The notes under the pieces were generated by a model. The model worked only from the letters and a program-made list of their open reading frames with translations, ran no database searches and was not told the DNA's origin. Shown here one piece after another: positions 3,353 to 53,219 of a DNA stretch of 64,000 nt (within the stretch, counting starts at the first letter, position 1; each line of letters starts with the position of its first letter). The stretch lies in assembly GCA_030650025.1 (NCBI GenBank), contig JAUSEN010000016.1, positions 9,428 through 73,427 of the forward strand, read 5' to 3'. A program made the translations under genes and the position numbers. This stretch comes from Candidatus Magasanikiibacteriota bacterium (lineage in GTDB: Bacteria > Patescibacteriota > Patescibacteriia > Magasanikbacterales > GWA2-37-8).

Positions 3353-3595
3353 GAAATCGTTGGGTTTGGTAACGATCCATTGACAAAATGGGTATTTTAT
3401 GGTATGATAATGCGTTCGAAGGGTTGTTTTTAAGCCTTTCGAATGAAGCTGTAGTTCTTTACAATTTAGACAATTTGACCATTGAAATTAGCAGTTTTCC
3501 TACCGGGAACAAAGTTTTGTAATCATACAAATCTTTTTCCCCGGTAGGACTCGTCTTGAGTTCTCCGTGCGGCTTCCAGCAGGAGGAAGAACGTC

Positions 3596-4510
3596 ATGAC
3601 CAAGACCTGGTTTGAGGGATTCAGCAAGGCGGCCATCTTGGCCGCGACCCTGCTCGTGGGGTTCACGAGCGCGGGGTGCGAGGAGAGGAAGGCTTCTCTC
3701 CTCATCACCATGACCTTCGATCCGTCGGTCTCCGAGGAGACGAGGGTCGAGGTCCGGCAGGTTGGAACGGTTCTCCGCCTCGCCGTGTCCGGCGTCGAGG
3801 AGTTGGCCGGCGATGGCAAGCTCGAGAGCCAGTCGCTCGACACGGACAAGCAGACCCTCCGGTATCGCCCGCTCGTCCAGAGCGGTCGTCTCAACTTCCA
3901 TATGGTGTTTTACAGTGGAAGGGATGTCGCGGTCCCGCTGATCTTCGGGCGGGGAGCGGGCGACATCCAGGCCGGCATCGAAGTGCCGGTCGCGGTCGTC
4001 CTCTTCCCCTGTGCAGGGGATCAAACAAACTGCCCGGGGAAGATTCCGGACAAGAAGTGCACTCGTGACGACGAGTGCAACCCGGGCTTCTCCTGCGATG
4101 TGCCGAGCGGTCGGTGCCTGCAGAAGCAGGACCAGCCGGACGCGGCCGCGCCCGTCGACATGGCCACGCCGCCGGATCTCACCCCGATCCCGGATCTCCA
4201 GATCGAGATCGAGAAGGTCTTCCGGGTGATCAAGGCCGGATCCGCAGTATGTTGCGAGATCCGCGATGTCCGGGGCAATTGGCTCGAGGACATCAAGATC
4301 GCGGACGGAACCGAGATCAAAAACCCTAAGGCGAAGTACTGTTTTCCCTTCGCCAAGGGGCTCGACATCACCGGCCGGTGCAACTTGCCGGAGGCGGTCA
4401 TCGCCCTCGGCCAGGGGCGTGACGGGTGCGTCAAGAAGGGAGGTCGCATCGACACCCCCAGCTTCAACTGGACGGAGGGGGGGATCGCGGACGACTGCAG
4501 TCAGAAGTAG
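3596..4510 (+). CDS. Cys-rich lipoprotein, hypothetical, encoded in a high-GC island
   Basis: Lipobox LVGFTSAGC after a signal peptide; strong SD (caggaggaag) 6 nt upstream. GC of about 65% and GC3-rich codons, unlike the flanking genes. Confidence 0.55.
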   Translation: MTKTWFEGFSKAAILAATLLVGFTSAGCEERKASLLITMTFDPSVSEETRVEVRQVGTVLRLAVSGVEELAGDGKLESQSLDTDKQTLRYRPLVQSGRLNFHMVFYSGRDVAVPLIFGRGAGDIQAGIEVPVAVVLFPCAGDQTNCPGKIPDKKCTRDDECNPGFSCDVPSGRCLQKQDQPDAAAPVDMATPPDLTPIPDLQIEIEKVFRVIKAGSAVCCEIRDVRGNWLEDIKIADGTEIKNPKAKYCFPFAKGLDITGRCNLPEAVIALGQGRDGCVKKGGRIDTPSFNWTEGGIADDCSQK

Positions 4511-4654
4511 CTGGCCCGAACCGCCGCGGGCCGGTCGTAGTAGCCTTCTCGCCTAGTACGTACGAAGAGCGAGAAGACCCCCAAACCTCCTCGCTCCTTA
4601 TGCCCGCAAATATTGTGGTTATAAGGAGTGAGGTTTGGGTGGTAAATTCTAATA

Positions 4655-30529: not shown

Positions 30530-32310
30530 GGTGCGTACCGCAAAAAGGTCGTTTTTTACGACCGCCACGTCCCCTGCACCAGAACGCTTCGCGTCCGGTT
30601 CAGGGCTTCGCAGTCTAGCTCTGGCTACTAGCGAAGCGCCACTCGGGACCTCTAGAAAATTGCGTAGCTTACACAAAAAACGATGTATATTGCTACAAAA
30701 TTTACTCGAGTTACTCCAAGTGGTTAAAAACCCCACCCATTTTATTGGGCCGCTTGGAAAAGCGGCTTTTATTATTTTGGTCGGCTCAGATCGGTGAGAC
30801 AGAGATTTCTCCCCGCTCTAGGCGGGTCGAAATGACAGTGCAGAGTGGACTGGCTGGTACTTTGACAATTCAGGCAAGCACCATGCACCACCATAAACCA
30901 CAAGGGTTTATGGCAAACAAGGGTGCATGGCTAAATAACCATGAACCACAAGGGTTCATGGCAAGATTAATGCTTATTTTAAACATCAAGGTCTGGTGTT
31001 TAAAATAATAAAGGGTAACTTCATAAACATGAATATTGTCATGAAAAATTATGAAGTCAACTCAACGTAAGCACCATTTGGTGTTTTCGTTGTGTGCAAT
31101 TTCAACAAGAGCATATGGTGGATGCCTAGACACTAAAAGATGAAGAAGGACGTTGCAAGGTGCGATAAGCCTCGGGGAGCTCCTAAGCAAGCTGTGATCC
31201 GGGGATTTCCGAATGGGGAAACCCGTTACAAAGAAATTTGTAACATCGTATACTGAATTCATAGGTGTACGAGGAAGACCTGGCGAAGTGAAACATCTCA
31301 GTAGCCAGAGGAAAATAAATCGAAGAGATTCCCTTAGTAGTGGCGAGCGAAAAGGGATCAGCCTAAACCTTATACATGTTGTTGCCGTAACAGATTGATC
31401 GCAAGGTTAATTATGAGCGGCAGTTTAAAGACGCAGGTCGTTGTGTATATGGTGTAATAAGACAATTACGCGTCCGCCCTGCGGCGGACGGTGAAAATGT
31501 GACTTTCCTAGTAGAACGCTCTGGAACGAGCGGCCGCAGAGGGTAAGAGCCCCGTACGCGAAAGGAGTCTATATAATCATGGTAGTTGTTCTTGAGTAGG
31601 GCGGAACTCGTGAAATTCCGTCTGAATTCGGGCCGACTATGGTCTAAGGCTAAATACTTTTAGTGATCGATAGTGGACTAGTACCACGAGGGAAAGGTGA
31701 AAAGTAGCCCGGTGAGGGCGATGAAATAGTATCTGAAACCATATGTTTACAAAGAGCGGAAGACCGGAGTACCCAGAATTATTCCCCCCTACGGGGGGAA
31801 TAATTCTGGGTCCTGGTCGACCGTGTTCCTATTGAAGAATGAGCCTGCGAGTGTGCTGTATGTCGTTGCTTAAACCCTTCTGGGGTGGAGGCATAGCGAA
31901 AGCGAGTCTTAACGGGCGTATATAATGGCATGCACATAACCCGAAACCGGGTGAGCTATCCATGACCAGGATGAACCCTTCCGAAAGGAAGGGGGAGGTC
32001 CGAACACACGAGCCGTGCAACACTCGGTGATGAGTTGTGGATGGGAGAGAAATTCTAATCGAACTCGGTGATAGCTGGTTCTCCTTGAAATAGTTTTAGG
32101 ACTAGCCTCGCGCGTTCCCTTTGGCGGTAGAGCACTGGATGAGACTCGGGTCCTTCGGGATACCAGTTTCAATCAAACTCCGAATGCCGAAGATTAAAAG
32201 CGCGGGAGTCAGACTGTGGGGGCTAAGCTCCATAGTCAAAAGGGAAACAGCCCTGATCGCCAGCTAAGGTCCCTAAATCCATATTAAGTGTGAAAGGTGG
32301 TGTTAACTCT

Positions 32311-32348
<38 letters not shown>

Positions 32349-33172
32349 TAAAGAAAGCGTAACAGCTCACTGGTCAAGAGTTTTCGCGCCGAAAATGTAC
32401 CGGGGCTAAATATGGTACCGAAGCTGCGAATTGGTAGATCCTCCGGGATTTACCTCTGGTAAAGGAGCGTTGGTAGCTGCGCTGAAGCCATAGCCGCGAG
32501 GCGTGGTGGAGTGCTACCAAGTGAGAATGCAGGCATGAGTAACAATAAGGGAAGTGAGAATCTTCCCCGCCGAAAATCCAAGGTTTCCTGGGCAACGAGA
32601 CTCGACCCAGGGTTAGTCGATCCTAAGGCCAGGCCGAAAGGCGTAACCGATGGAAGAGCAGGTTAATATTCCTGCACTTGGTATAGTTTGTTTGTTAGTG
32701 CGCATAGTGAAGCTGACAGCGTGTTTTGAATATACACGTTTCTTTACCCCGACGTGAAGTCGGGGCAGGGACGAAGATGAAGCCTTCGGGTGGAGTCAAC
32801 TGTCGGGGACGCTGTGCCTAGAAAAGCTAATAAACGTTAAGCTATATCAAACCGTACCGTAAACCGACACAGGTAGGTGAGTCGAGAAGACTAAGGCGTA
32901 CGAGAGAACCCTCTTTTAGGAACTCTGCAATACAGCGGCCGTAACTTAGGGATAAGGCCCGCCCCGATGTAAAAATCGGGGTTACAACAAAAGACGCACT
33001 GCGACTGTTTACCAAAAACACAGCTCCCTGCAAAAGCGCAAGCTGAAGTATAGGGAGTGATGCCTGGCCAGTGTCAGAACGTTAAGGCGAGAGGTTATCC
33101 GGTCATCCGACCGGAGAAGCCTTGAACTGAAGCGCTGATGAACGCCGGCGGTAACTATAACCGTCCTAAGGT

Positions 33173-33408
33173 AGCGGACTTGAGAAATCGAGCACGCTAG
33201 GATTGGGACGGATATAGCAAAAAGTAAACAATCATTAAAGATGAGCAGAGTCATCGAAATATTAACAGCCATTCAAAAAATGCTACCTTGCTTTGCAGTA
33301 ATGCAAAGAATAATCCGGTCATAGCTTATGAGAGACTATACGCTATGCTCCTCCGACGAAACTCGGAGGAAGAAGATTTAGTCCTTCGTCATTAAACAGG
33401 AAACGAAG
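33173..33408 (+). mobile_element. group I-like intron (ORF-less), inserted after the U of GGU|AGCG (E. coli ~L1931, helix 69/70 region)
   Basis: The conserved ccgtcctaaggt.agcgaaattccttgtcgg is interrupted by 236 nt; the 5' exon ends in U and the insert ends in G. Confidence 0.6.
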
Positions 33409-33430
33409 AGCGAAATTCCTTGTCGGGTAA

Positions 33431-33682
33431 ACCAAGAACTTGCCCCCTGGTCGAGTAATTGACCTTGAAGCAATAGCTGTATCGGTGGAACCCATAAAAA
33501 ATCGTGCAGATTAATTATGGGCAATACCGAGGGAAGTCCTCCCAAAATGGAGTGACCCCGTAGAGACTACACGCTGTCTCCCGAGTTATTCGGGATGAAG
33601 ATATAGTCCGATCCTGCCGAGTAATTGGCAGCCCTACGAAAATCAAAAATCTAAAATCATAAATCGAAAATTCGTAGATGGA
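33431..33682 (+). mobile_element. second 23S insertion (~252 nt) within GGGUAA|GUUCCGACC (E. coli ~L1951-1953); intron-like, ORF-less
   Basis: Conserved flanks gggtaa and gttccgacctgcacgaatgg are contiguous in E. coli; boundaries are uncertain by 1-2 nt. Confidence 0.55.
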
Positions 33683-34208
33683 GTTCCGACCTGCACGAAT
33701 GGCATAACGATAGTGCGACTGTCTCAAAGAGGGACTCGGTGAAATTGCAAGGAAGGTGAAGATGCCTTCTACCCGCAACTAGACGAAAAGACCCCGTGAA
33801 GCTTTACTACAGCTTGCTATTGGTATACGTGCACGTATGTTGAGCGTAGGTGGGACCCGCAAGGGGCCAATGAGACACCACCCTTATGTATATGTATGCC
33901 TAATCTCTGCCCGTGAATCCGGGGAGGGAGACAGTGGCTGGCGGGTAGTTTATCTGGGGCGGATGCCTCCTAAAATGTAACGGAGGCGTTTACAAAGGTA
34001 GGCTTAGCGCGGATGGAAATCGCGCTGGACGTGCAAACGCAAAAGCCTGCTTTACTGCAAGGGCTACAACCCGCGCAGTTGCGAAAGCAGAAGTTAGTGA
34101 ACCGACCATCCTATATAGGAAGGTGGAAGATCAACGGATAAAAGCTACTCCGGGGATAACAGGCTGATCGCGCCCAATAGTCCACATAGACGGCGCGGTT
34201 TGGCACCT

Positions 34209-34573
34209 TAAATTATCGGGGTGCATACAAAGTGATTTGTTTCCAAGTTTTTTCGTCTAAAACAATTATGTTAAGATAGAAATAGAGATTTAAATCGGCT
34301 TATAACGGTGAACCCGTCATCCCGCCTAAGGCGGGATCGGCAATACCGTGGGAAGTCGCCCATTAACTGTGGGTTGACCCCGTAACGACTGACCCGAAAG
34401 GGGAGACTCGGTTACAGTTAGTAATCGGGTAATACGCCGACTCTTATATTAATCAAACTGAGATCATGCGACTCACGCCCCGAGCAAGTCCCGAAAGGGA
34501 CAAGTCGAGGGGTCCGCTAACATCCAGTATAAGAAGAAGATATAGTCTGCCCCATACGAAAGTATGGAATCAT
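34209..34573 (+). mobile_element. third 23S insertion (~365 nt) in the peptidyl-transferase-centre strand GGCACC|U(A)CGAUGUCGG (E. coli ~L2500); intron-like, ORF-less
   Basis: tttggcacc ... tacgatgtcggctcatc flanks; no long ORF inside. Confidence 0.55.
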
Positions 34574-34636
34574 GTACGATGTCGGCTCATCGCATCCTGG
34601 GGGTGAAGAAGCTCCCAAGGGTTTGGCTGTTCGCCA

Positions 34637-34688
<52 letters not shown>

Positions 34689-35124
34689 CTATCTGTTGCG
34701 GGCGCAGAATGTTGCAAAGACTCTTCCCTAGTACGAGAGGACCGGGAAGAATAAACCTCTGGTGTGCGAGTTGTTCCGTCAGGAGCATTGCTCGGTAGCT
34801 ACGTTTAGCACGGATAAACGCTGAAAGCATCTAAGCGTGAAGCCGTCTTTAAGATTAACATTCGTTATAGACCCCTTGTAGATTACGAGGTTGATAGGCT
34901 CTACGTGTAAGCACAGTAATGTGTTGAGCGGAGGAGTACTAATCGGTCGAGCGCACAACGAAAGCATTAAGTGGTGCTCACCTCTTCGGTGAGTCTACGA
35001 GTTATGTTTGCCATGTCATTCGACATGGCCTTGCCTGAATTTAGTCATTGTAGTAAACTATTTTGAAAATTCCCCCGCCAAAAGCGGGATCAGCTCGCTA
35101 ACGCGAGCCGAAAAAAGAACTAAT

Positions 35125-35236
35125 GTCTTGGTGGCTTTAAGCGAAGGGGTCACACCCGATCCCATCCCGAACTCGGCAGTTAAGCCCTTCTGCGCTGATG
35201 ATAGCCCAAGTGGCAAAAGTAGGCCGCCGCCAGGAC
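35125..35236 (+). rRNA. 5S rRNA
   Basis: cccgatcccatcccgaactcggcagttaagc matches the 5S loop B/C consensus (cf. E. coli cccacctgaccccatgccgaactcagaagtgaaac); terminal helix gtcttggtggc / gccgccaggac. Confidence 0.8.
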
Positions 35237-35295: not shown

Positions 35296-35895
35296 TTGCT
35301 TATGGTTATTAAAGAGAATGCTATAATGCCACAGAAGTCCAGAATAATAGTCATTGGAGGCACATATGGAGTAGGAAAAACCAGCGCCGCCCACCAGTTA
35401 TCGGCTGATTTAGATATTCGTCAGCGCGGCGGTCTTGATGTTATCACCGACACCATGAAGGCTTTTTTAAAAAATTCTAAGTTGGTAGCCAACCTTTCTC
35501 GGTTTGAGGACGTATCAAAACAGGCTTTAAAAAATAAATTACATCGGGAGAGCAAATTTATTAGCAAAGCGATTAATACGATTATAGGTATCGCTGACAA
35601 GACAGGCGAAAGTTTTATAATAGAAGGCGTCCAAATTTTGCCGGAGTTTTTGCCGCTAGATCGTGTCCAATACTGTGTATTGAAGGTTTCCGACAGTCGT
35701 GAGCATCAACAGCGGTTCGAGTCGCCGTCTTTAATGCGCTTCCGGCATTATAATAATGCTAACTTTGGAGTGGTAAAAAAGTTGGAAGAGGTAATTTTGA
35801 GCGCGGTTGAACAGTATAAAGCGCCGATATTCGATAATGTGGTTCCTCTTGAGCAAACAGTATTAAATATTCGTAAATATTTTAGTTTAGTTTAA
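35296..35895 (+). CDS. P-loop NTPase / small kinase-like protein
   Basis: Walker A IVIGGTYGVGKTSAAH; no further assignment possible. Confidence 0.45.
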   Translation: MLMVIKENAIMPQKSRIIVIGGTYGVGKTSAAHQLSADLDIRQRGGLDVITDTMKAFLKNSKLVANLSRFEDVSKQALKNKLHRESKFISKAINTIIGIADKTGESFIIEGVQILPEFLPLDRVQYCVLKVSDSREHQQRFESPSLMRFRHYNNANFGVVKKLEEVILSAVEQYKAPIFDNVVPLEQTVLNIRKYFSLV

Positions 35896-35928: not shown

Positions 35929-36585
35929 ATGTCTTCGGCCTTGGTGCAAAAAACAGCAGAATACGTAAAATTAAAACTTCATCATGAGCCATCCGGACAT
36001 GATTGGTATCATGTGAGGCGAGTTTGGCAAATGTCTCGTTTGCTACAAAAAGAAGAAGGTGGCGATTTAGAGCTAGTGGAACTGTCGGCGTTGTTACATA
36101 ATTTACGCGAACATGGCAACACGGCTTTTTATGAAGAAAAAGGGTCGCTCGCGCTTTTTGGCATGATGGATGTTTTAGGAATTGAGGAAGAGCTGAAACA
36201 AAAAATTTTACATGTGGTAGAGGATGGCAAATATCAGGGTGATGATACCAAAAAACCAATGACGATTGAGGGCATGATTCTGCAAGACGCCAACTGGCTC
36301 GATGCCTTGGGAGCGGTGGGAATTGCCCGGGCGTTCGCATCGGGCGGGTTTATTGGGAGGCCAATTTATGATCCTGATATTAAAGTTCGTAAACGAATGA
36401 ATAAGCAGTTATATCAACAAAAAAAGAAGGATACCACGAGTTTTAATTATCTATATGAAAAAGCTTTCCGAGTAGCGGAGATATTGAATACCACGACAGC
36501 CAAAAGGATAGGCGCGACCCGCATCGCATTTATGAAGAATTTTATAGAAGAATTTGTTAAAGAGTGGGAAGAAAAAGATCAGTAA
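35929..36585 (+). CDS. HD-domain phosphohydrolase
   Basis: H..HDWYHV... and downstream D residues typical of HD domains. Confidence 0.6.
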   Translation: MSSALVQKTAEYVKLKLHHEPSGHDWYHVRRVWQMSRLLQKEEGGDLELVELSALLHNLREHGNTAFYEEKGSLALFGMMDVLGIEEELKQKILHVVEDGKYQGDDTKKPMTIEGMILQDANWLDALGAVGIARAFASGGFIGRPIYDPDIKVRKRMNKQLYQQKKKDTTSFNYLYEKAFRVAEILNTTTAKRIGATRIAFMKNFIEEFVKEWEEKDQ

Positions 36586-36692
36586 AATTATATATTTCAC
36601 GCGGCTGGTCTCTTGACAAGCCGTATTTTTTTTGATACGTTCAGAATAGACGAACGGGACGTCAACCACAACCAACAACCCGGGAGGGCCAG

Positions 36693-37343
36693 ATGCGCAA
36701 AAAGCATAAAAAGCCCGAGCGGGGGCTGGTTCTGTGTTTTGACGGCCCTTCCGCCGCCGGGAAGGACCATGTGGTGAGGTACCTGCTTCGCCGCCACCCC
36801 GAATGGGTGTTCGTGCCGCGCTACACCACGCGGCCGCTGAAGCCCGGGGAGCGGAATGGGGTGGATTATCACTTCGTAGCGCCTGCCGAGTTCGCTCGTC
36901 TCAAAAAGACGGGCAGGCTCAAGGGCGTGCACCACTTTGACGGGAATTGGTACGGGGTGGATGTCCGCGAGATTGACCGCCACCTCGGCGCCAAGAAGCG
37001 CCGCACGGTGGTCGGGATCTTCGGCCGGTGCTCTCCGGCCGTACGCGAGGAGTTTGGCAAACGCGTTGGCAAACGCGCGGTGCTATTTTTCATCACCGCG
37101 TCGCCGGCAGTACTCGCCGAGCGCTTGCGTGAGCGAGGGGAGCTCACCGAGGGGCAGTTCCACACGCGCCTCGGAAATGCCGCGCGTCACATCAGTGAGG
37201 CGCAGGGGAAGTTCGACTACGTCGTGTCGACCGACCCTGATGCTCGCCCCCCGCCGCTCTTCATCGAGGCGGTGCTCCACAGCCTCGAAATCAAGCTCGG
37301 AATCAAGGTGGCGGGCCTTGATTTCAACAACAACGACGACTGA
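36693..37343 (+). CDS. gmk: guanylate kinase-like protein, compositionally foreign (high GC)
   Basis: GPSAAGKDHV (P-loop) ... TTRPLKPGERNGVDYHFV ... YGV: guanylate-kinase signature blocks. GC of about 62% against a background of about 45-50%. Confidence 0.65.
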   Translation: MRKKHKKPERGLVLCFDGPSAAGKDHVVRYLLRRHPEWVFVPRYTTRPLKPGERNGVDYHFVAPAEFARLKKTGRLKGVHHFDGNWYGVDVREIDRHLGAKKRRTVVGIFGRCSPAVREEFGKRVGKRAVLFFITASPAVLAERLRERGELTEGQFHTRLGNAARHISEAQGKFDYVVSTDPDARPPPLFIEAVLHSLEIKLGIKVAGLDFNNNDD

Positions 37344-37396
37344 TGCGTTCAGTCGTTAAGCAAGGAGGAGAACAACAGGCCGTCCTGCTGGTGTTG

Positions 37397-38008
37397 CTAA
37401 GGCAACTCCAGCAGGGAAGTACTGAATCCAGCAATAATATTTTTGATTGCCGGGTTGAGCATTTTTTCGGCTAGGATTTCTTCCCAAGAATACTCTTTAA
37501 AGTAGGCTACTTCTTGTAAATCCGGAGTCGGGGTGCCTTGGAATTCGCTATAAAATATATACCAATAGTGGTGGGGGGCGCCGCGGCGGCAAAGGTCATT
37601 TTCGGAAAGTCCTTCCCATAGTAGTTTATATTTTTCTAAAGTAAAACCAGTTTCTTGGGCAGTTTCTCGAAGCAAAGTCTGTTCGGGAGTTTCGTCTATA
37701 GTAACGTGGCCGGCAACATTGTCGATTACTTGAGGGAAGGTGCGTTTTTTCATGAGTAAAAATTTTCTGGTGGCGACATTGCGCAGTAAAACGCCAATGG
37801 TAAAATGCTGCATTTGCTCGCGATGCCAAACAGTTTTGGTGCGGTTGTCCAGGCGCAACTTTAGCCCATCGGTTTTATTGCATTGCAAACAATGAAATTG
37901 TATTTGGTCTGGCGTAATAATTTTGCGAGGGTTTGGCGCCAGGCAAAAATAGCAATAATCGCCATCGGCTAATTTGGCTAGATCTTTTTTTAGATGAATA
38001 GGATACAT
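37397..38008 (-). CDS. NUDIX hydrolase with N-terminal zinc-ribbon
   Basis: CYFC...CLQC zinc ribbon; Nudix box GHVTIDETPEQTLLRETAQETGF. Confidence 0.75.
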   Translation of the reverse strand: MYPIHLKKDLAKLADGDYCYFCLAPNPRKIITPDQIQFHCLQCNKTDGLKLRLDNRTKTVWHREQMQHFTIGVLLRNVATRKFLLMKKRTFPQVIDNVAGHVTIDETPEQTLLRETAQETGFTLEKYKLLWEGLSENDLCRRGAPHHYWYIFYSEFQGTPTPDLQEVAYFKEYSWEEILAEKMLNPAIKNIIAGFSTSLLELP

Positions 38009-38139: not shown

Positions 38140-38676
38140 ATGAAGCAAGCTATTGCCAAAATTTACGCAAAAAACAAGCGCGAAGTTAAGATAAGTTGGG
38201 AAGAGGTGGAGAGGGCGACTTTGCGCATTGTGCATGCCATGCAGAGAGATAATTATAAGCCTGATATAATAATTTCCTTGGCGCGCTCAGGCTTAATCCC
38301 GGCCGCGATGATTAGTTATACGCTCGGCAATAAACAGTTGTATTTTATTAAAGCAGAATTAACCAAAACGCAACGCTCGGGGAAAGATCAGGATTTTTTA
38401 AGCCGTCCGGTATTAACGCAACGCATTAAGCGCAGTTTAAAAAACCATCGTCTGCTGGTGGTGGACGAAATGACAGTCTCGGGCGCGACCCTTGAACTTG
38501 TGAGCGAATATTTAAAAACTAAAAAACCAAAACAGGTAAAATACGCCGTGCTGTTTAAACAGCCCTGGTCGCATTTTAAGCCAGATTATTTTGGAAAGGT
38601 TTTGAAAGATTGGCCTCTCTACCCCTGGAAGGATTTGCGTAATAATATAAGAGATCCGCGGAGTTTGATTAAATAA
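38140..38676 (+). CDS. purine phosphoribosyltransferase-like protein
   Basis: PRPP-binding motif LLVVDEMTVSGATL. Confidence 0.65.
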   Translation: MKQAIAKIYAKNKREVKISWEEVERATLRIVHAMQRDNYKPDIIISLARSGLIPAAMISYTLGNKQLYFIKAELTKTQRSGKDQDFLSRPVLTQRIKRSLKNHRLLVVDEMTVSGATLELVSEYLKTKKPKQVKYAVLFKQPWSHFKPDYFGKVLKDWPLYPWKDLRNNIRDPRSLIK

Positions 38677-49197: not shown

Positions 49198-50397
49198 ATG
49201 AATCTGTACGAATTTGAGGGAAAAAATTTATTGGCTAAACATGGAATTAAAACGCCGCGAGGCGTGGTGGTTCGGCGTGGGGATGATTTTGTTAGTAAGT
49301 ATAATGAATTAGTGAAATTGGGAATTAAAGACGTGGTGGTGAAGGCCCAAGTTTTGAGCGGTAAGCGTGGTAAAAATAATGGGATTAAATTTTGTGATAA
49401 TGGCGAGGAGGTAAAAAAGGCATGTGAGGAATTATTTACTTTAAATATTCGAGGGCAGTATGTGGCGGCTATATTAATTGAAGAAAAATTAGCCATTGCG
49501 GAAGAACATTATATTTCGATTGTTTATGATACTAACAAAAAACAGCCGTGTTTAATTTATAGTAAACAGGGAGGGATGGATATTGAGGATGTGGCAGAGG
49601 AGAAGATTGAGAAAGTGTGGTTGGATATTAGGGAAGAAAATGTCGTTGGCGTAGAGACGTTGCACGCAACGTCTCTACCGATTGATGAATTATGGAAATT
49701 ATTTTTAAACGAAGATACCCGGCAAGTAGAAATTAATCCGCTCGTGAAAACCAAATCTGGCGAATGGGTCGCGGCGGACGCAAAAATCGCGATTGATGAT
49801 GATGCTTTTTTTAGACACCCCTCGGCAAGCTCGGGGCCTTCGGTAACTGATTGGACCAAATTTGAGCCGCGGACAATGCTGGGGCGCCTGCCGACAAGCC
49901 GGGAAATTGCCGTCAAGAAAATTGATGAAGGCGAAAAATATTACCAAGGCACAGCCGGGAAGTATATTGAGCTCGACGGTGATATCGCGATGATTTTAAA
50001 CGGGGGTGGAGCGAGTATCGCCAATATGGACGCCCTAGCTCAAGTGGGACTCAAAGCTGCTAATTACACGGAATATTCCGGTAATCCACCGAGAGAAAAA
50101 GTCGCGGCGTTGGCGCGCATTGTACTATCTAAACCTGGTCTCAAGGGCCTTTGGATGTGTGGGGTAGTAGCCAATTTTACTAACATTAAAGAAACGTTTT
50201 TAGGGATTTGCGATGCCCTCGATGAAATTAAGCCGACTTACCCAATTGTCGTCCGGCGCGACGGCACGGAGAGTGCCGCGGGGTTCGCATTATTAGAAGA
50301 ATGCGCCAAGCGTAATAATTTGAATATTAAAATGTTTAAAAAGGAAACCGGCATGAGTGCCACGGCGCAAATTTTGGCGGAGATGATAGAAAAATAA
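49198..50397 (+). CDS. SucC-like ATP-grasp subunit (succinyl-CoA synthetase beta / citryl-CoA synthetase large subunit-like)
   Basis: MNLYEFEGKNLLAKHGI... ATP-grasp N-domain and the ...DGDIAMILNGGGASIANMD ligase-CoA motif. Confidence 0.7.
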   Translation: MNLYEFEGKNLLAKHGIKTPRGVVVRRGDDFVSKYNELVKLGIKDVVVKAQVLSGKRGKNNGIKFCDNGEEVKKACEELFTLNIRGQYVAAILIEEKLAIAEEHYISIVYDTNKKQPCLIYSKQGGMDIEDVAEEKIEKVWLDIREENVVGVETLHATSLPIDELWKLFLNEDTRQVEINPLVKTKSGEWVAADAKIAIDDDAFFRHPSASSGPSVTDWTKFEPRTMLGRLPTSREIAVKKIDEGEKYYQGTAGKYIELDGDIAMILNGGGASIANMDALAQVGLKAANYTEYSGNPPREKVAALARIVLSKPGLKGLWMCGVVANFTNIKETFLGICDALDEIKPTYPIVVRRDGTESAAGFALLEECAKRNNLNIKMFKKETGMSATAQILAEMIEK

Positions 50398-50406
50398 TAA
50401 TCAACT

Positions 50407-51297
50407 ATGTCTATCTTGATAGATAAAAACACAAAAGTAGTAGTCCAAGGCATGACTGGCAAAGAAGGCCAGAAAGGCGCCAAAGCCATGCTGGATTATA
50501 ATACCACTGTTTTATGCGGAGTAACGCCGAACAAAGGTGGGCAAGAAGTGGAAGGAAAGCCGATTTTTAATTCAGTAGGAGAAGCTAAAGCGCAGTGGCC
50601 GGATTTAAATACCAGCGTTATTTATGTGCCGCCGTTTGCGGCTAAAGCCGCGATTTTGGAAGCGATTGAAGCGGGGGTAGCGTTAATAAATGTGTTTACC
50701 GAGAGAATTCCCATTAAAGACACGGCGTATTGTTTGGCGGCGTCTCAGGAGAAGGGGGCGAGAGTGCTCGGACCAAGTTCGTTAGGCGTGATTAACCCAG
50801 GAATTGGGAGATTAGGAGTGGTCGGAGGGCCATTAGTTAATGAAATTTTTCAGCCTGGGAGTATTGGCGTGGTCTCGCGTTCGGGCGGAATGACCAATGA
50901 ACTCTCTTGGAGTTTGAGGCAGGCAGGTTTAGGGCAGAGTGCGGCGGTGCACGTGGGCGGCGATTTGCTTATGGGCACAACGTATGCGGATGTTTTGCGC
51001 CTGTTTGAGAAAGATGCCAACACCAAGGGCGTGATTATTTTTGGAGAACACGGCGGCAGTTATGAATTTGAAATTGTGGAGGCGATACAAAAGAAAGAAT
51101 ACACCAAGCCGCTCGCCATTTTTATCGGCGGTAAATTTGCCAGCAGCCTCCCGGAAGGCATGAATATTGGCCACGCCGGCGCGATTGTGGAGCGCGGCAA
51201 GGGCGCGGCGGAAAAGGCCGCTGCTTTGGCTACAGTGGGAGTAATGATCGCGGAGCAATACGAAGATTTGGTTAATTTGATTAAACCTTATGCCTGA
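50407..51297 (+). CDS. SucD-like CoA-binding subunit (alpha)
   Basis: VVVQGMTGKEGQKGA CoA-binding Rossmann fold; SRSGGMTNE and GHAGAI (phospho-His) regions. Confidence 0.7.
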   Translation: MSILIDKNTKVVVQGMTGKEGQKGAKAMLDYNTTVLCGVTPNKGGQEVEGKPIFNSVGEAKAQWPDLNTSVIYVPPFAAKAAILEAIEAGVALINVFTERIPIKDTAYCLAASQEKGARVLGPSSLGVINPGIGRLGVVGGPLVNEIFQPGSIGVVSRSGGMTNELSWSLRQAGLGQSAAVHVGGDLLMGTTYADVLRLFEKDANTKGVIIFGEHGGSYEFEIVEAIQKKEYTKPLAIFIGGKFASSLPEGMNIGHAGAIVERGKGAAEKAAALATVGVMIAEQYEDLVNLIKPYA

Positions 51298-51631
51298 TTT
51301 AAACCAAATGACGAGCACAATTCAACAGGCGGAAGAGGCCATTGCTAAAGTTTCTAGTACAGCTGGGGCGATAAATGATGCTTATGTAAAAACCAAAAAT
51401 GTGATAGAGCAGGGTAGGCGTTATTATGATGTGTTTAAGAGTTGGGTGGAAAAATTTCAGGAGTGGTTGGAAAAACTTGAGCCCTATATTACGCCGGTAA
51501 AAAATTTCTGGCTAAAAATTAGCAATAATAACGAACCGAAACGGGTACTAGTCATCGTTTTGGTGGTAGTGGTGGTAATTGTTTTATGGAAATTGCGTAA
51601 TTTACGCGCGGGGCAAAAATTTGACCGATAG
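51290..51631 (+). CDS. hypothetical protein with C-terminal TM helix
   Basis: ORF with a hydrophobic C-terminal segment (VLVIVLVVVVVIVLW). Confidence 0.4.
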   Translation: MPDLNQMTSTIQQAEEAIAKVSSTAGAINDAYVKTKNVIEQGRRYYDVFKSWVEKFQEWLEKLEPYITPVKNFWLKISNNNEPKRVLVIVLVVVVVIVLWKLRNLRAGQKFDR

Positions 51632-51634
51632 TTT

Positions 51635-52462
51635 ATGAAGAAAAACCAAATGAAAAAATTTAGAAAAGGTGAACGAAACGCGCTCGGAATGACAGCTGAC
51701 CAGAGCTCTGTAATACGTAATACGGCTTGGGAAAAATCCAGCCGCTGGTACGATAAGCTGGTGGGTGAGGGCGGGCATTATTACCATGAGCATGTAATAC
51801 TCCCGGCAGTTTTAGCTATTTTTAAACTCCAGAACGGCGACAGTGTTTTAGATATTGGCTCGGGCCAGGGGGTGCTCGCCCGTATTCTGCCAAGAGGCAT
51901 TTCGTATGTTGGGGTGGACGCGTCGCTCTCTCTCACTAAAGTGGCGTCGGCAAAAAATAAAAACCCAGAGCACCGGTACGTGTGTGCCGACGCTGGCAAG
52001 ACTCTTCCGGTAGCGAAAAAAGATTTTACGCACGCGGCGATTATTTTGGCTTTACAGAATATGGAGAACCCGGGTAGTGTGCTCAAAAACACTGCCGTGC
52101 ATCTTAAAGGCGGAGCAAAATTAGTGATTGTTCTTAATCACCCGGCCTTTCGGATTCCGCGCCAGAGCGGGTGGGATGTTAACCCCAAGAATAATATCCA
52201 ATACCGCTGGATAAATCGTTATTTAAGTCCCATGAAAATTCCGCTCAATATGCACCCGGGGAAAAGTAATACCGAGTTAACCTGGAGTTTCCACGAGCCG
52301 ATTTCGGCATACGCGAAATTTTTGAAAGAAGCCGGGTTTGTGATTGAAAATATTGAAGAGTGGAGCTCGGATAAAACCAGTACGAGCCGCGAAAAAAAAC
52401 GCGAGGACCGGGCGCGGGCGGAAATCCCGCTGTTTATGTGCGTGGTGGCTATCAAAAAATAA
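51635..52462 (+). CDS. class I SAM-dependent methyltransferase
   Basis: Motif I VLDIGSGQGVLA. Confidence 0.6.
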   Translation: MKKNQMKKFRKGERNALGMTADQSSVIRNTAWEKSSRWYDKLVGEGGHYYHEHVILPAVLAIFKLQNGDSVLDIGSGQGVLARILPRGISYVGVDASLSLTKVASAKNKNPEHRYVCADAGKTLPVAKKDFTHAAIILALQNMENPGSVLKNTAVHLKGGAKLVIVLNHPAFRIPRQSGWDVNPKNNIQYRWINRYLSPMKIPLNMHPGKSNTELTWSFHEPISAYAKFLKEAGFVIENIEEWSSDKTSTSREKKREDRARAEIPLFMCVVAIKK

Positions 52463-52484
52463 TTATTTATTATAACTTTTCGAT

Positions 52485-53219
52485 ATGACGATAAAATTTA
52501 AAACAGCTATTTCTAATGTTAACGCCGGCGATGAGGTGGTGCGGGGAGAAAATTTAAAAAATTTAATAGTAGCCAAAACATTTACCGAAGTTATTTTTTT
52601 GATTTTACGGGGTGTGATGCCAACGTCAGAAGAAGTTCAGATGCTGAACGCGGTATTAGTAAGTATGATTGACCATGGGCCCGGGGTGAGCTCGGCTTTA
52701 ACGGCGCGGGTGGTTCAGTCCGCGGGGAATGATTTGCATACGGGGGTGGCCGCGGGAATGCTAGCTTTGGGAGGGAATAGGCATGGCGGAGCGCTCGGCG
52801 GCGCGGCTAAATTTTTTCAGGAAAATTTTGAGACTCAAGACTTGCCTGGGTTATTAAAAAATTTAAAAGACAAGAAAATTCGTGTGCCGGGGTATGGGCA
52901 TAAAGTTTTGGCGCATGATAACAGAACCGACGTGCTTTTTGGAGTAGCCAAAGAAACAGGTTTTTTTGGAAAATATTCTGAATTTGCTAATACAGTGCAT
53001 GAAGAAATTAATAAAATAGCTTCGAAAAAATTGCCGTTGAATATGGACGGGGCGAACGCGGCGATTCTGTCTGACATGGGTTTTGATTGGCGTTTAATAA
53101 CGGGATTTTTCTTAATTGGCCGCACCCCAGGCCTCGTGGCGCAAGTCTACGAGGAAATGCAGAGCGGGGAGGGTATCAGACGGTTAGAAGAGAGTGAGAT
53201 AGAGTATTTGGGAAGTTAG
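52485..53219 (+). CDS. citrate-synthase-like catalytic-domain protein (citryl-CoA lyase-like, short form)
   Basis: VPGYGHKVLAHDNRTDVLF resembles the citrate synthase GxGHxVY(K)xxDPR active-site block; the whole protein is only 244 aa. Confidence 0.55.
   Translation: MTIKFKTAISNVNAGDEVVRGENLKNLIVAKTFTEVIFLILRGVMPTSEEVQMLNAVLVSMIDHGPGVSSALTARVVQSAGNDLHTGVAAGMLALGGNRHGGALGGAAKFFQENFETQDLPGLLKNLKDKKIRVPGYGHKVLAHDNRTDVLFGVAKETGFFGKYSEFANTVHEEINKIASKKLPLNMDGANAAILSDMGFDWRLITGFFLIGRTPGLVAQVYEEMQSGEGIRRLEESEIEYLGS

What the first reader, a model, noticed from the sequence alone, without database searches (positions are those of the whole stretch)
36693..37343. Guanylate-kinase-like gene with foreign (high-GC) composition among AT-richer housekeeping genes
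A 216-aa P-loop protein with the GMP-kinase blocks (GPSAAGKDHV; TTRPLKPGERNGVDYHFV; ...YGV) is encoded at ~62% GC with GC3-rich codons and its own SD (cccgggagggccagATG). It sits between an HD hydrolase and a convergent NUDIX gene, ending at a shared terminator hairpin (cctgctgg...ccagcagg). This may be a xenologous replacement of an essential nucleotide kinase, or an acquired accessory kinase. It is the second high-GC patch in the window, after 3500-4560.
Basis: partly seen in the sequence, partly recalled or inferred. Interest (0 to 1): 0.5.

Follow-up and report, generated by a model that had tools for sequence, protein, structure and literature searches.

The report
Non-canonical guanylate-kinase-like gene paired with NUDIX
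The GC-rich gene is real, but it is not an ordinary guanylate kinase: it belongs to a rare, undescribed branch of that enzyme fold that has lost the guanine-reading residues, usually sits tail-to-tail with a NUDIX hydrolase gene, comes and goes among related genomes, and was already GC-rich before this genome split from its nearest sampled relative.

Summary
ORF 36693-37343 (216 aa) has GC 0.63 and GC3 0.79, against gene means of 0.475 and 0.50. Amino-acid content does not explain this (z=5.5).

- **Protein:** it has the guanylate-kinase fold with intact ATP, phosphoryl-transfer and acceptor-phosphate residues. All four guanine-reading positions are replaced (human S37/E72/T83/D103 become R43/G78/V89/F110). 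It scores far below the Gmk and PhnN equivalog cut-offs.
- **Family:** it groups, as the most divergent member, with a rare subfamily of about 17 clusters among billions of proteins. In 8 of 10 distinct lineages that subfamily lies convergent with a NUDIX hydrolase gene; 0 of 15 canonical gmk loci do (p=4e-5).
- **Distribution:** related genomes with the orthologous NUDIX either have this gene (L043, L013) or lack it (L044, L046, L048), so at this locus it looks accessory.
- **Age of the GC excess:** the nearest relative (L043) has an 81%-identical copy at 66% GC beside an 80%-identical NUDIX at 43% GC. The GC excess therefore predates that split and is not a recent transfer.
- **Function (inferred):** an ATP-dependent kinase for a non-GMP phosphomonoester, coupled to the NUDIX enzyme. 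Ribose 1,5-bisphosphate to PRPP is the leading but weak candidate.

The parts
36693..37343 (+). GKL: 216-aa guanylate-kinase-fold P-loop kinase of a non-Gmk subfamily. It forms a single-gene GC-rich island (GC 0.63, GC3 0.79). It has a basic N-terminal extension (MRKKHKKPER) and a C-terminal tail shared with the L013 and L043 copies.
36682..36688 (+). Shine-Dalgarno-like GGGAGGG, 4 nt upstream of the ATG
   Evidence: read directly from the sequence
36603..36637 (+). Terminator-like hairpin after the HD gene: GGCTGGTC / GACAAGCC stem with one mismatch, then a T8 run. It separates the HD gene from GKL transcriptionally (inferred).
   Evidence: read directly from the sequence; not called by the scan, presumably because of the stem mismatch
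37384..37415 (.). Stable stem-loop between the convergent genes. Its right arm and loop overlap the last codons and stop codon of the NUDIX gene, and it has no U-tract. A comparable hairpin sits at the same junction in L013, and its left arm is conserved in L043.
37397..38008 (-). Type-B NUDIX hydrolase, 203 aa, with an N-terminal CxxC...CxxC zinc-ribbon-like segment and native composition (GC 0.43). It is the convergent partner of GKL, and its orthologues recur in sugar-phosphate gene clusters of related genomes.
35929..36585 (+). HD-domain phosphohydrolase (YedJ/PRK10119-like), a conserved member of the surrounding cluster
38140..38676 (+). Purine-type phosphoribosyltransferase (a PRPP-using enzyme). 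It directly follows the HD gene in relatives that lack the GKL-NUDIX pair at this position.

Best explanation
SHOWN. The gene encodes a protein with the guanylate-kinase fold. The P-loop (G18-K24), the lid arginines (R148, R159) and the residues that hold the acceptor's phosphate in Gmk (R47, K50, Y59, Y87) are all kept. The four residues that read the guanine base are replaced: S37 to R43, E72 to G78, T83 to V89, D103 to F110 (human GMPK numbering first).

The protein belongs, as its most divergent member, to a rare discrete subfamily that I call GKL. The subfamily signature is (V/I)PRxTTR, YG(V/I) and (V/I)GxFG. In most lineages the GKL gene lies tail-to-tail, 15-65 bp apart, with a NUDIX hydrolase gene. 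Among relatives that carry the orthologous NUDIX, GKL is present in some and absent in others, which suggests it is dispensable; whole genomes were not examined.

Its GC-rich composition is shared by the copy in the nearest sampled relative. That copy has diverged exactly as much as the neighbouring NUDIX, so the gene and its odd composition were inherited vertically at least since that split.

INFERRED. GKL is an active ATP-dependent phosphotransferase that adds a second phosphate to a phosphomonoester other than GMP. It works on the same metabolite pool as its NUDIX partner, a diphosphate-cleaving enzyme. Together the pair would set a monophosphate/diphosphate balance within the sugar-phosphate and nucleotide-salvage cluster where it sits.

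The invariant Arg that replaces the guanine-binding Ser is also found in PhnN (ribose 1,5-bisphosphate phosphokinase). So are the P-loop Asp, the small residue at the E72 position and the Val at the T83 position. This points to an acceptor with an extra negative charge. Ribose 1,5-bisphosphate to PRPP is my leading specific guess, at roughly 15-20%.

The gene originally came from a GC-richer donor, or its GC content is actively maintained. The data lean slightly towards maintenance but do not settle it.
For: Fold: AlphaFold model pLDDT 88, pTM 0.83. Best PDB matches are all guanylate kinases, TM about 0.8, rmsd 2.0-2.5 A, 22-29% identity.

Family scores: Pfam Guanylate_kin 60 bits (cut-off 25.2). 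TIGR03263 gives 91.5 bits against a 160.45 cut-off, and PhnN TIGR02322 gives 50.8 against 156. The same pattern holds for P0061, P0062, P0067 and P0073.

Residue map against 262 canonical Gmks, 17 subfamily members, E. coli Gmk and PhnN: K17, R41, Y53, Y81, R137 and R148 are conserved everywhere. At S37, canonical proteins have S/T in 252 of 262, the subfamily has R in 17 of 17, and PhnN has R. At E72, canonical proteins have E in 253 of 262 and the subfamily has A/G/L/V. At T83 the subfamily has I/V. At D103 the query has F. Residue roles and mutant effects come from PMC12297293.

Discrete subfamily: with a profile search, 16 clusters score 175-286 bits, then the scores drop to about 125 bits for canonical Gmk. 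In a leave-one-out test the query scores 152 bits against the subfamily and 115 against canonical Gmk.

NUDIX pairing: seen in L008, L009/L017, L010, L018, L019, L020, L013 and the window (with L043), that is 8 of 10 distinct lineages. None of 15 informative canonical gmk loci has it; Fisher p=4e-5.

Presence/absence: L013 reads FBA-I | GKL | NUDIX | TrmB, and L048 reads FBA-I | NUDIX | TrmB. L044/L045 and L046/L047 have the NUDIX without GKL.

Vertical sharing of the GC excess: between the window and L043, GKL is 81.1% identical in protein with GC 0.633/0.662 and 4-fold-site GC 0.83/0.88, while 37% of 4-fold sites differ. NUDIX is 79.8% identical with GC 0.43/0.43. L013 GKL has GC3 0.70 against 0.36 for its NUDIX.

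Amelioration model: pure decay since the split would need an ancestral 4-fold GC of 1.04 (95% range 0.92-1.27).

Context: the cluster holds PRTase, glpX, aldolase, GAPDH, TrmB, NTP-transferase and GlmS. A wider-clade member, P0099, lies in an NTP-transferase-GKL-ROK operon.
Against: No biochemical data exist for any member, so the substrate is a guess.

The query's attachment to the subfamily is weak in a crude NJ tree: 32% bootstrap, against 79% for the subfamily without it. It is only 30-41% identical to the other members.

The window's NUDIX (type B) is only distantly related to the type-A partners (27-30% identity), so the pairing may have arisen twice. Two subfamily lineages, and P0099 in the wider clade, have no NUDIX neighbour.

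The PhnN model scores the query no better than it scores genuine E. coli Gmk (50.8 vs 59.8 bits). PhnN lacks the R44/E47/Y53 equivalents that GKL keeps. No ribose-1,5-bisphosphate pathway gene (RuBisCO, AMP phosphorylase, R15P isomerase) was seen in the parts of the window I annotated.

Convergent genes are not co-transcribed, so adjacency is weaker evidence of shared function than an operon would be. A divergent mode of guanine recognition cannot be formally excluded.
Confidence: 0.55

Rival explanations
1. It is the genome's genuine, essential guanylate kinase: a divergent xenologue that replaced the native gmk. On this view guanine is recognised by a different set of residues.
For: It has the Gmk fold and passes Pfam Guanylate_kin. 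The Gmk-type TTRPxxPGExxGxDYxF phosphate-binding motif is kept. No other Gmk-like ORF exists in the 64-kb window.
Against: All four guanine-contacting positions are replaced, and E72A and S37P abolish activity in human GMPK. The score is 91.5 bits against a 160-bit equivalog cut-off. The gene is absent from the syntenic position in three related lineages that keep the NUDIX. The subfamily is extremely rare, about 17 clusters among 5.8 billion proteins, whereas gmk is near-universal. The window covers only a small part of the genome, so the absence of a second gmk within it says little.
Confidence: 0.1
2. It is a recent horizontal acquisition into this particular genome from a high-GC donor, and the GC excess is an un-ameliorated scar of that event.
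For: The compositional deviation is gene-sized, and codon usage is foreign: Leu is CTC/CTG in 14 of 18 codons, whereas the native preference is TTA/TTG at 56%. Distribution among relatives is patchy. A second GC-rich single-gene island with similar codon bias lies at 3596-4510. An ISL3 transposase sits next to the pair in L043.
Against: L043 carries an orthologue that is 81% identical in protein and 78% in DNA. It is equally GC-rich, sits at the same junction, and has diverged as much as the flanking NUDIX. The acquisition, if any, therefore predates a split deep enough to change 37-50% of 4-fold sites. No donor-like homologue above about 40% identity was found in about 15 billion proteins, apart from the truncated L043 copy, which is not in the protein databases. 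There are no phage or plasmid-like relatives. An older transfer remains possible and is part of the best explanation.
Confidence: 0.1
3. It is a catalytically dead guanylate-kinase-like binding module, analogous to the GK domains of MAGUK proteins, that binds a ligand or protein and regulates the NUDIX enzyme or another partner.
For: Guanine recognition is lost, and the Asp equivalent to D101 (Mg2+/K+ coordination in human GMPK) is replaced by Gly. GK domains are known to have become binding modules in animals (established knowledge).
Against: The P-loop Lys and both lid arginines are invariant or nearly so across the subfamily. So are all acceptor-phosphate ligands, with R44 conservatively Lys in the query. 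That pattern is expected under selection for catalysis. MAGUK GK domains have degenerate P-loops (established knowledge, not tested here). A P-loop Asp (GKD), shared with the active enzyme PhnN, could take over the D101 role (inference).
Confidence: 0.1
4. It is a nucleoside-monophosphate kinase for a different or modified base (for example a damaged, modified or non-guanine NMP). It would recycle the NMP released when the NUDIX enzyme cleaves an NDP-X compound such as an NDP-sugar, ADP-ribose or NAD.
For: The Gmk-like NMP-binding scaffold is kept while the base pocket is remodelled to be more hydrophobic and to carry an Arg. NUDIX enzymes release NMPs (established knowledge). NTP-transferase genes for sugar-nucleotide synthesis lie in the same clusters. 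The type-B NUDIX has a zinc-ribbon-like N-terminus, as NAD-cleaving NudC enzymes do (from memory, not tested).
Against: No specificity motif of any known NUDIX class was recognised, and the NCBIfam hits are all far below their cut-offs. Nothing distinguishes this reading from the bisphosphate-sugar hypothesis with the available data.
Confidence: 0.15

Closest known systems
Guanylate kinase Gmk (EC 2.7.4.8; Pfam PF00625, NCBIfam TIGR03263)
   Same: Same fold (TM about 0.8, rmsd about 2 A). Same P-loop, lid arginines and acceptor-phosphate ligands, and the same TTRPxRPGE..G.DY.F motif.
   Different: The guanine-reading residues S37, E72, T83 and D103, and the metal-bridging D101, are all replaced. 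The P-loop has Asp after the Lys. It scores 91.5 bits against a 160-bit equivalog cut-off. It is rare and present or absent among close relatives rather than universal. It is linked to a NUDIX gene, which canonical gmk is not.
PhnN, ribose 1,5-bisphosphate phosphokinase (PRPP-forming; NCBIfam TIGR02322 / PRK10078)
   Same: It is another GK-fold enzyme that phosphorylates a phosphate group on a non-nucleotide acceptor. It shares four of the positions that set GKL apart from Gmk: the P-loop GKD, Arg at the S37 position, a small residue at E72, and Val at T83.
   Different: The query scores 50.8 bits against a 156-bit cut-off, no better than E. coli Gmk itself scores on that model. PhnN lacks the R44, E47 and Y53 equivalents that GKL keeps. 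There is no phn operon context. No PhnN structure is available for comparing pockets.
GK domains of MAGUK scaffolding proteins (catalytically inactive binding modules)
   Same: A GK fold with altered GMP-site residues at the S37-equivalent hinge position. PDB sequence hits to MAGUK and CASK chains are weak.
   Different: GKL keeps an intact P-loop and lid, so it looks catalytically competent. It is bacterial and a single-domain protein.
Kinase plus NUDIX pairs that cycle a metabolite between mono- and diphosphate forms. Examples: plant isopentenyl-phosphate kinase with Nudix IPP/DMAPP phosphatases, and NUDIX PRPP pyrophosphatase activity that gives ribose 1,5-bisphosphate. Both are recalled from memory and are not in the searchable library.
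   Same: Conceptually the same logic: a NUDIX enzyme removes a terminal phosphate or splits a diphosphate, and a kinase restores it.
   Different: Those kinases belong to other folds. No shared substrate has been shown here. The resemblance is a lead, not a test.

Membership tests
Guanylate kinase (Gmk, EC 2.7.4.8) | Guanylate-kinase fold (CORE, GMP-binding and LID domains) | tested here: met
   Model pLDDT 88. The top 50 PDB matches are all Gmk, TM 0.65-0.81.
Guanylate kinase (Gmk, EC 2.7.4.8) | P-loop Lys, lid arginines (human R137, R148) and GMP-phosphate ligands (R41, R44, Y53, Y81) | tested here: met
   The equivalents are K24, R148, R159, R47, K50 (a conservative change), Y59 and Y87. 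Roles are from PMC12297293.
Guanylate kinase (Gmk, EC 2.7.4.8) | Guanine-recognition residues (human S37, E72, T83, D103) | tested here: not met
   They are R43, G78 (or a gap), V89 and F110 in the query. Canonical proteins keep S/T in 252 of 262, E in 253 of 262, T in 223 of 262 and D/E in 248 of 262. E72A and S37P are inactive in human GMPK.
Guanylate kinase (Gmk, EC 2.7.4.8) | Score at or above the curated equivalog cut-off (TIGR03263, 160.45 bits) | tested here: not met
   91.5 bits. E. coli Gmk scores 254.9 bits on the same model.
Guanylate kinase (Gmk, EC 2.7.4.8) | GMP kinase activity, and being the genome's only such enzyme | not testable with these tools
   No second Gmk-like ORF lies in the 64-kb window.
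PhnN ribose 1,5-bisphosphate phosphokinase | Score at or above the equivalog cut-off (TIGR02322, 156 bits; PRK10078, 153 bits) | tested here: not met
   50.8 and 41.6 bits.
PhnN ribose 1,5-bisphosphate phosphokinase | Location in a phosphonate (phn) C-P lyase operon | tested here: not met
   The neighbours are HD, NUDIX, PRTase, glpX and aldolase genes. The E. coli reference operon is shown.
PhnN ribose 1,5-bisphosphate phosphokinase | Residues that distinguish PhnN from Gmk in the acceptor pocket (GKD P-loop, Arg at S37, non-acidic residue at E72, Val at T83) | tested here: met
   All four are shared by the query and the subfamily. However, PhnN's S/S/H at the R44/E47/Y53 positions are not shared.
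GKL subfamily (proposed here; no curated model exists) | Signature (V/I)PRxTTR ... YG(V/I) ... (V/I)GxFG, plus a profile score above the gap that separates it from Gmk | tested here: met
   The query has VPRYTTR, YGV and VGIFG. It scores 278 bits on profile A2 (which includes it) and 152 bits leave-one-out, against 115 for canonical Gmk. The NJ tree leaves its exact attachment unresolved, at 32% bootstrap.
GKL subfamily (proposed here; no curated model exists) | Convergent NUDIX gene within about 65 bp of the 3' end | tested here: met
   The window has a 53-bp gap. The pairing holds in 8 of 10 lineages against 0 of 15 canonical loci, p=4e-5. The window's NUDIX is a different (type-B) lineage from the type-A partners.
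Recently transferred genomic island | Atypical composition and codon usage confined to the insert | tested here: met
Recently transferred genomic island | Absent from the closest relatives, or present with a near-identical donor copy elsewhere | tested here: not met
   The closest relative, L043, has the orthologue, and it has diverged as much as the flanking gene. Apart from that truncated L043 copy, the best database hit is about 40% identical.
MAGUK-type inactive GK module | Degenerate P-loop or lid with loss of catalytic residues | tested here: not met
   The P-loop and lid arginines are conserved across the subfamily.

The most novel reading that the evidence does not exclude
GKL and its NUDIX partner would form a previously undescribed two-enzyme switch in Patescibacteria. 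The switch would interconvert ribose 1,5-bisphosphate and PRPP: a PhnN-type kinase reaction one way and NUDIX PRPP pyrophosphatase the other. That would tie nucleotide salvage to the sugar-phosphate cluster without PRPP synthase. In addition, the gene's GC-richness would be actively maintained against the genome's mutational bias rather than being a decaying trace of transfer.
Probability: 0.12. Interest if true: 0.6.

Novelty: new variant of a known kind. Interest (0 to 1): 0.4.

Why it matters
Automated annotation calls members of this subfamily either 'guanylate kinase' (JGI) or 'hypothetical protein' (NCBI). The residue evidence says the first label is probably wrong. Metabolic reconstructions of Patescibacteria that count these genes as Gmk would then be misled.

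A conserved kinase-NUDIX pair with a remodelled acceptor pocket is a tractable target for discovering a new phosphotransfer reaction in organisms whose nucleotide and sugar-phosphate metabolism is still poorly understood.

The case is also a caution for using GC content as a clock for horizontal transfer. Here a single-gene GC island has persisted across a divergence that changed 37-50% of 4-fold sites.

Tried and rejected
- **Word-indexed protein search with the query alone.** It returned only the query itself and canonical Gmks at 38% identity or less, which wrongly suggested an orphan. The exhaustive HMMER scan was needed to reveal the subfamily.
- **Genome-contig scan with the HD neighbour.** It found one useful relative (L002, where HD is followed directly by the PRTase) and otherwise only distant Firmicutes HD proteins.
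- **Metagenome scans.** The scan with the type-B NUDIX alignment found nothing. The scan with the core alignment A5 worked.
- **Defence-system (PADLOC) and phage (PHROGs) libraries.** No defence hit; the only phage hit was the generic phage 'guanylate kinase' family at a Gmk-like score.
- **Phage records and viral contigs.** Only relatives at 39% identity or less, so a phage origin is not supported.
- **PDB search with E. coli PhnN.** There is no PhnN structure, so the pockets could not be compared.
- **Literature searches.** Searches for GK-like/NUDIX/CPR, PhnN/guanylate kinase, and NUDIX/PRPP/ribose-bisphosphate found nothing usable. Only the human GMPK paper was useful.
- **Known NUDIX specificity motifs.** I looked by eye for the ADP-ribose Pro, the NADH SQPWPFPxS motif and the IDI Cys/Glu in both NUDIX types. 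None was recognised; the type-A partners have Ala where IDI has its catalytic Cys (sequences). The motif definitions are from memory.
- **First tree run.** It timed out. The faster NJ/bootstrap run is crude and should not be over-read.
- **Chimeric assembly.** Considered and rejected.
Full report
**1. The observation**

The ORF at 36693-37343 (+) is present as described. It starts with ATG, encodes 216 aa, has GGGAGGG 4 nt upstream, and contains the quoted motifs. Its GC is 0.631 and its GC3 is 0.788. The 57 ORFs of the window average GC 0.475 (sd 0.051) and GC3 0.503 (sd 0.085).

Amino-acid content does not explain the excess. With the window's own synonymous codon usage this protein would have GC3 0.499, which gives z=5.5. 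Leucine is encoded by CTC or CTG in 14 of 18 codons, whereas native genes use TTA or TTG 56% of the time.

In 60-nt windows the GC-rich block begins at about 36,700 and ends at about 37,290, so it coincides with the CDS. The flanking genes are an HD hydrolase and a convergent NUDIX hydrolase. The hairpin at 37384-37415 is real and stable, but it has no U-tract and overlaps the NUDIX stop codon. The other GC-rich patch is a single 304-aa ORF at 3596-4510 with GC3 0.849 and z=6.4.

The window comes from a MAG labelled Candidatus Magasanikbacteria (Patescibacteria/CPR). The protein is MDO8626461.1, annotated 'hypothetical protein'. The arrangement is not an assembly artefact. A Logan assembly of SRR13727527 is identical over 6 kb. 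A related organism from another sample has the same junction.

**2. What the protein is**

Pfam places it in Guanylate_kin at 60 bits. The AlphaFold model is confident (pLDDT 88, pTM 0.83). It superposes on closed GMP-ADP complexes of bacterial guanylate kinases with TM about 0.8 and rmsd about 2 A, at only 22-29% identity.

It nevertheless fails the curated equivalog models. TIGR03263 (Gmk) gives 91.5 bits against a cut-off of 160, and PhnN gives 50.8 against 156.

For human GMPK, PMC12297293 reports the following:
- S37, E72, T83 and D103 hydrogen-bond the guanine.
- R41, R44, R148, Y53 and Y81 hold the phosphate.
- The S37P, R41A, R44A and E72A mutants are inactive.
- D101 takes part in Mg2+/K+ coordination.

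I mapped these positions onto an alignment of 262 canonical Gmks, 17 subfamily members, E. coli Gmk and E. coli PhnN. The query keeps every catalytic and phosphate ligand: K24, R47, K50, Y59, Y87, R148 and R159. It replaces every guanine ligand (R43, G78, V89, F110) and the D101 equivalent (G108). The canonical set keeps S/T, E, T and D/E at these positions in 85-97% of sequences.

I conclude that the protein is very likely an active phosphotransferase whose acceptor carries a phosphate but is not GMP.

**3. It is not an orphan: a rare subfamily**

The word-indexed search found only the query itself and canonical Gmks. The exhaustive HMMER scan of 1.84 billion representatives found a few proteins well above the canonical level. 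These share the query's unusual motifs (V/I)PRxTTR, YG(V/I) and (V/I)GxFGxC.

A profile of five such proteins retrieved 16 clusters at 175-286 bits, followed by a gap down to about 125 bits for ordinary Gmks. All members tested behave like the query on NCBIfam: 84-103 bits on the Gmk model and 27-55 on PhnN.

In a leave-one-out test the query scores 152 bits on the subfamily HMM and 115 on a canonical HMM. A crude NJ tree supports the 17-member subfamily at 79% bootstrap but attaches the query to it in only 32% of replicates. The query is therefore best described as the subfamily's most divergent member.

A wider set of GK-fold proteins with Arg at S37 and no Glu at E72 also exists: P0099, P0111, P0145 and others. 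Four of the five positions that separate GKL from Gmk are shared with PhnN: the P-loop GKD, Arg at S37, a small residue at E72 and Val at T83. PhnN, however, lacks the R44, E47 and Y53 equivalents that GKL retains.

**4. Gene neighbourhood**

In L008, L009/L017, L010, L018, L019 and L020 the outer flanks are unrelated: ArgRS, cell-wall genes, GrpE-DnaK with ribosomal proteins, and others. In each, the GKL gene is followed 15-65 bp later by a convergent NUDIX gene. These 'type-A' partners are 44-52% identical to one another and weakly YfcD/IDI-like. They have a canonical Nudix box and lack the IDI catalytic Cys.

Two lineages lack the partner: P0216 beside tuf, and P0061 beside a cupin gene. 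Counting distinct lineages, 8 of 10 GKL loci have a convergent NUDIX, against 0 of 15 informative canonical gmk loci (Fisher p=4e-5).

The window's NUDIX is a different 'type-B' lineage. It is 203 aa, has an N-terminal CxxC...CxxC segment, and is only 27-30% identical to type A. Both types nonetheless have the same weak best NCBIfam match.

**5. Relatives of this genome**

Thirteen type-B NUDIX orthologues exist. I retrieved contexts for five lineages.

| Locus | NUDIX identity to window | Arrangement | GKL |
|---|---|---|---|
| L043 | 80% | ISL3 transposase, NUDIX, convergent GKL (cut by the contig end) | present; region 65% GC |
| L013 | 59% (TrmB 68%) | FBA-I, GKL, NUDIX, TrmB, HAD | present; 30-37% identical; GC3 0.70 vs 0.36 for its NUDIX |
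| L048 | 55% | FBA-I, NUDIX, TrmB (L013's arrangement minus GKL) | absent; 56 bp between the convergent genes |
| L044/L045 | 56% | NUDIX present | absent |
| L046/L047 | 56% | an IMPase gene sits in the GKL position | absent |

L002 has the HD gene followed directly by the PRTase.

The three type-B GKLs share three features that the type-A proteins lack: a basic N-terminal extension, a C-terminal LE(I/V)xxG(I/V)K(I/V)xG tail, and GC-richness.

GKL is thus present in some and absent in other related lineages at the 3' end of a conserved NUDIX gene, inside a conserved cluster. That cluster holds HD, PRTase, glpX, aldolase, GAPDH, TrmB, HAD, NTP-transferase and GlmS genes.

**6. Age and nature of the GC excess**

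Between the window and L043, GKL is 81.1% identical in protein and 78.3% in DNA. The adjacent NUDIX is 79.8% and 76.2% identical. The two genes have therefore been co-inherited since the split.

At 95 shared 4-fold sites in GKL, 37% differ, yet GC at those sites is 0.83 and 0.88. Fifteen of the 35 differences are C/G exchanges. GC-to-AT and AT-to-GC differences are balanced (7 versus 12, unpolarised).

I used the NUDIX 4-fold sites as a neutral clock (d about 0.84, range 0.53-1.38) and the native 4-fold composition (GC4 0.62) as the equilibrium. Under pure amelioration the ancestral gene would have needed GC4 of 1.04 (95% range 0.92-1.27), and 73% of bootstrap replicates need an impossible value above 1. 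This leans towards GC being maintained, or towards slower synonymous change in this gene. It does not exclude an extremely GC-rich donor.

In most type-A lineages the gene has ambient GC. The exception is L009, at +0.07.

An older transfer from a GC-rich donor remains plausible, but no donor was found.

One point is unexplained. GKL and NUDIX diverged equally between the window and L043, yet between the window and L013 GKL is 30-37% identical while NUDIX is 59% identical. Possible causes are a plateau in NUDIX identity (most orthologues sit at 55-59%), an episode of fast GKL evolution, or replacement by a related xenologue.

**7. Mechanism (inferred)**

The conserved catalytic apparatus, the retained acceptor-phosphate ligands and the remodelled base pocket with an invariant Arg together argue for a kinase that converts some X-phosphate to X-diphosphate.

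NUDIX enzymes cleave diphosphate linkages. A conserved kinase-NUDIX pair is therefore most simply read as two enzymes acting in opposite directions, or in sequence, on one metabolite pool.

Ribose 1,5-bisphosphate to PRPP is the best specific candidate, at about 15-20%. The reasons are the PhnN-like substitutions, the extra positive charge in the pocket, and the neighbouring PRPP-using phosphoribosyltransferase and sugar-phosphate genes. An alternative of similar weight is a kinase for a non-guanine or modified NMP released by the NUDIX enzyme. Neither can be decided computationally.

**8. Novelty and verdict**

No curated family separates these proteins from Gmk. JGI names them 'guanylate kinase' and NCBI names this one 'hypothetical protein'. 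I found no literature on them.

This is a new variant of a known kind: a GK-fold kinase with a changed specificity pocket and a characteristic NUDIX partner. Interest is moderate. It is a clean annotation correction, a testable enzyme-discovery lead, and a caution about reading GC islands as recent transfers. It is not a categorically new system.

Noticed in passing
window 3596-4510 (+): A second single-gene GC island: a 304-aa ORF with GC 0.637 and GC3 0.849 (z=6.4 against native codon usage). Leu codons are CTC-dominated, as in GKL. It has a lipoprotein-like N-terminus (...LLVGFTSAGC) and a Cys-rich C-terminal half. It has no hit in Pfam, NCBIfam, PHROGs or PADLOC.
   Followed up: partly
window 49198-53219 (+): A set of genes resembling a split ATP-citrate lyase or citryl-CoA system: ATP-grasp_2 with Citrate_bind, CoA_binding with Ligase_CoA, and a citrate-synthase C-terminal domain. 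This is unusual for a Patescibacteria genome.
   Followed up: no
window 31093-34959 and 35127-35235: The 23S rRNA is interrupted by a group I intron (33419-33631) and followed by the 5S rRNA. No 16S rRNA gene was detected anywhere in the window.
   Followed up: no
window 35296-35895 (+): A 199-aa P-loop protein weakly similar to 2-phosphoglycerate kinase and mevalonate-3-phosphate 5-kinase models (61 and 37 bits, far below their cut-offs). It lies directly upstream of the HD gene, and an ORF of similar size flanks the HD gene in L048.
   Followed up: partly
L043 640-1866: In the closest relative, an ISL3-family transposase lies immediately upstream of the NUDIX gene of the GKL-NUDIX pair. No transposase is near the pair in the window.
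   Followed up: no
L053 1778-4251 (P0099), plus proteins P0111, P0145, P0110, P0169, P0193 and P0180: A wider, heterogeneous set of GK-fold proteins carries Arg at the S37 position and lacks E72. One of them lies in an apparent NTP-transferase-GKL-ROK operon with overlapping stop and start, and with no NUDIX neighbour.
   Followed up: partly
window vs L013 (482-1078) and L043: Unexplained rate mismatch. GKL and NUDIX diverged equally between the window and L043 (81% vs 80%). Between the window and L013, GKL is 30-37% identical while NUDIX is 59% and TrmB 68% identical.
   Followed up: partly
L002 (contig CAZHNI010000015.1): This contig is labelled 'uncultured Gammaproteobacteria' in its record title. 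It nevertheless carries the same HD-PRTase-MgtC-glpX-aldolase cluster as the Patescibacteria relatives, with an HD protein 56% identical to the window's. The taxonomic label is probably wrong.
   Followed up: no
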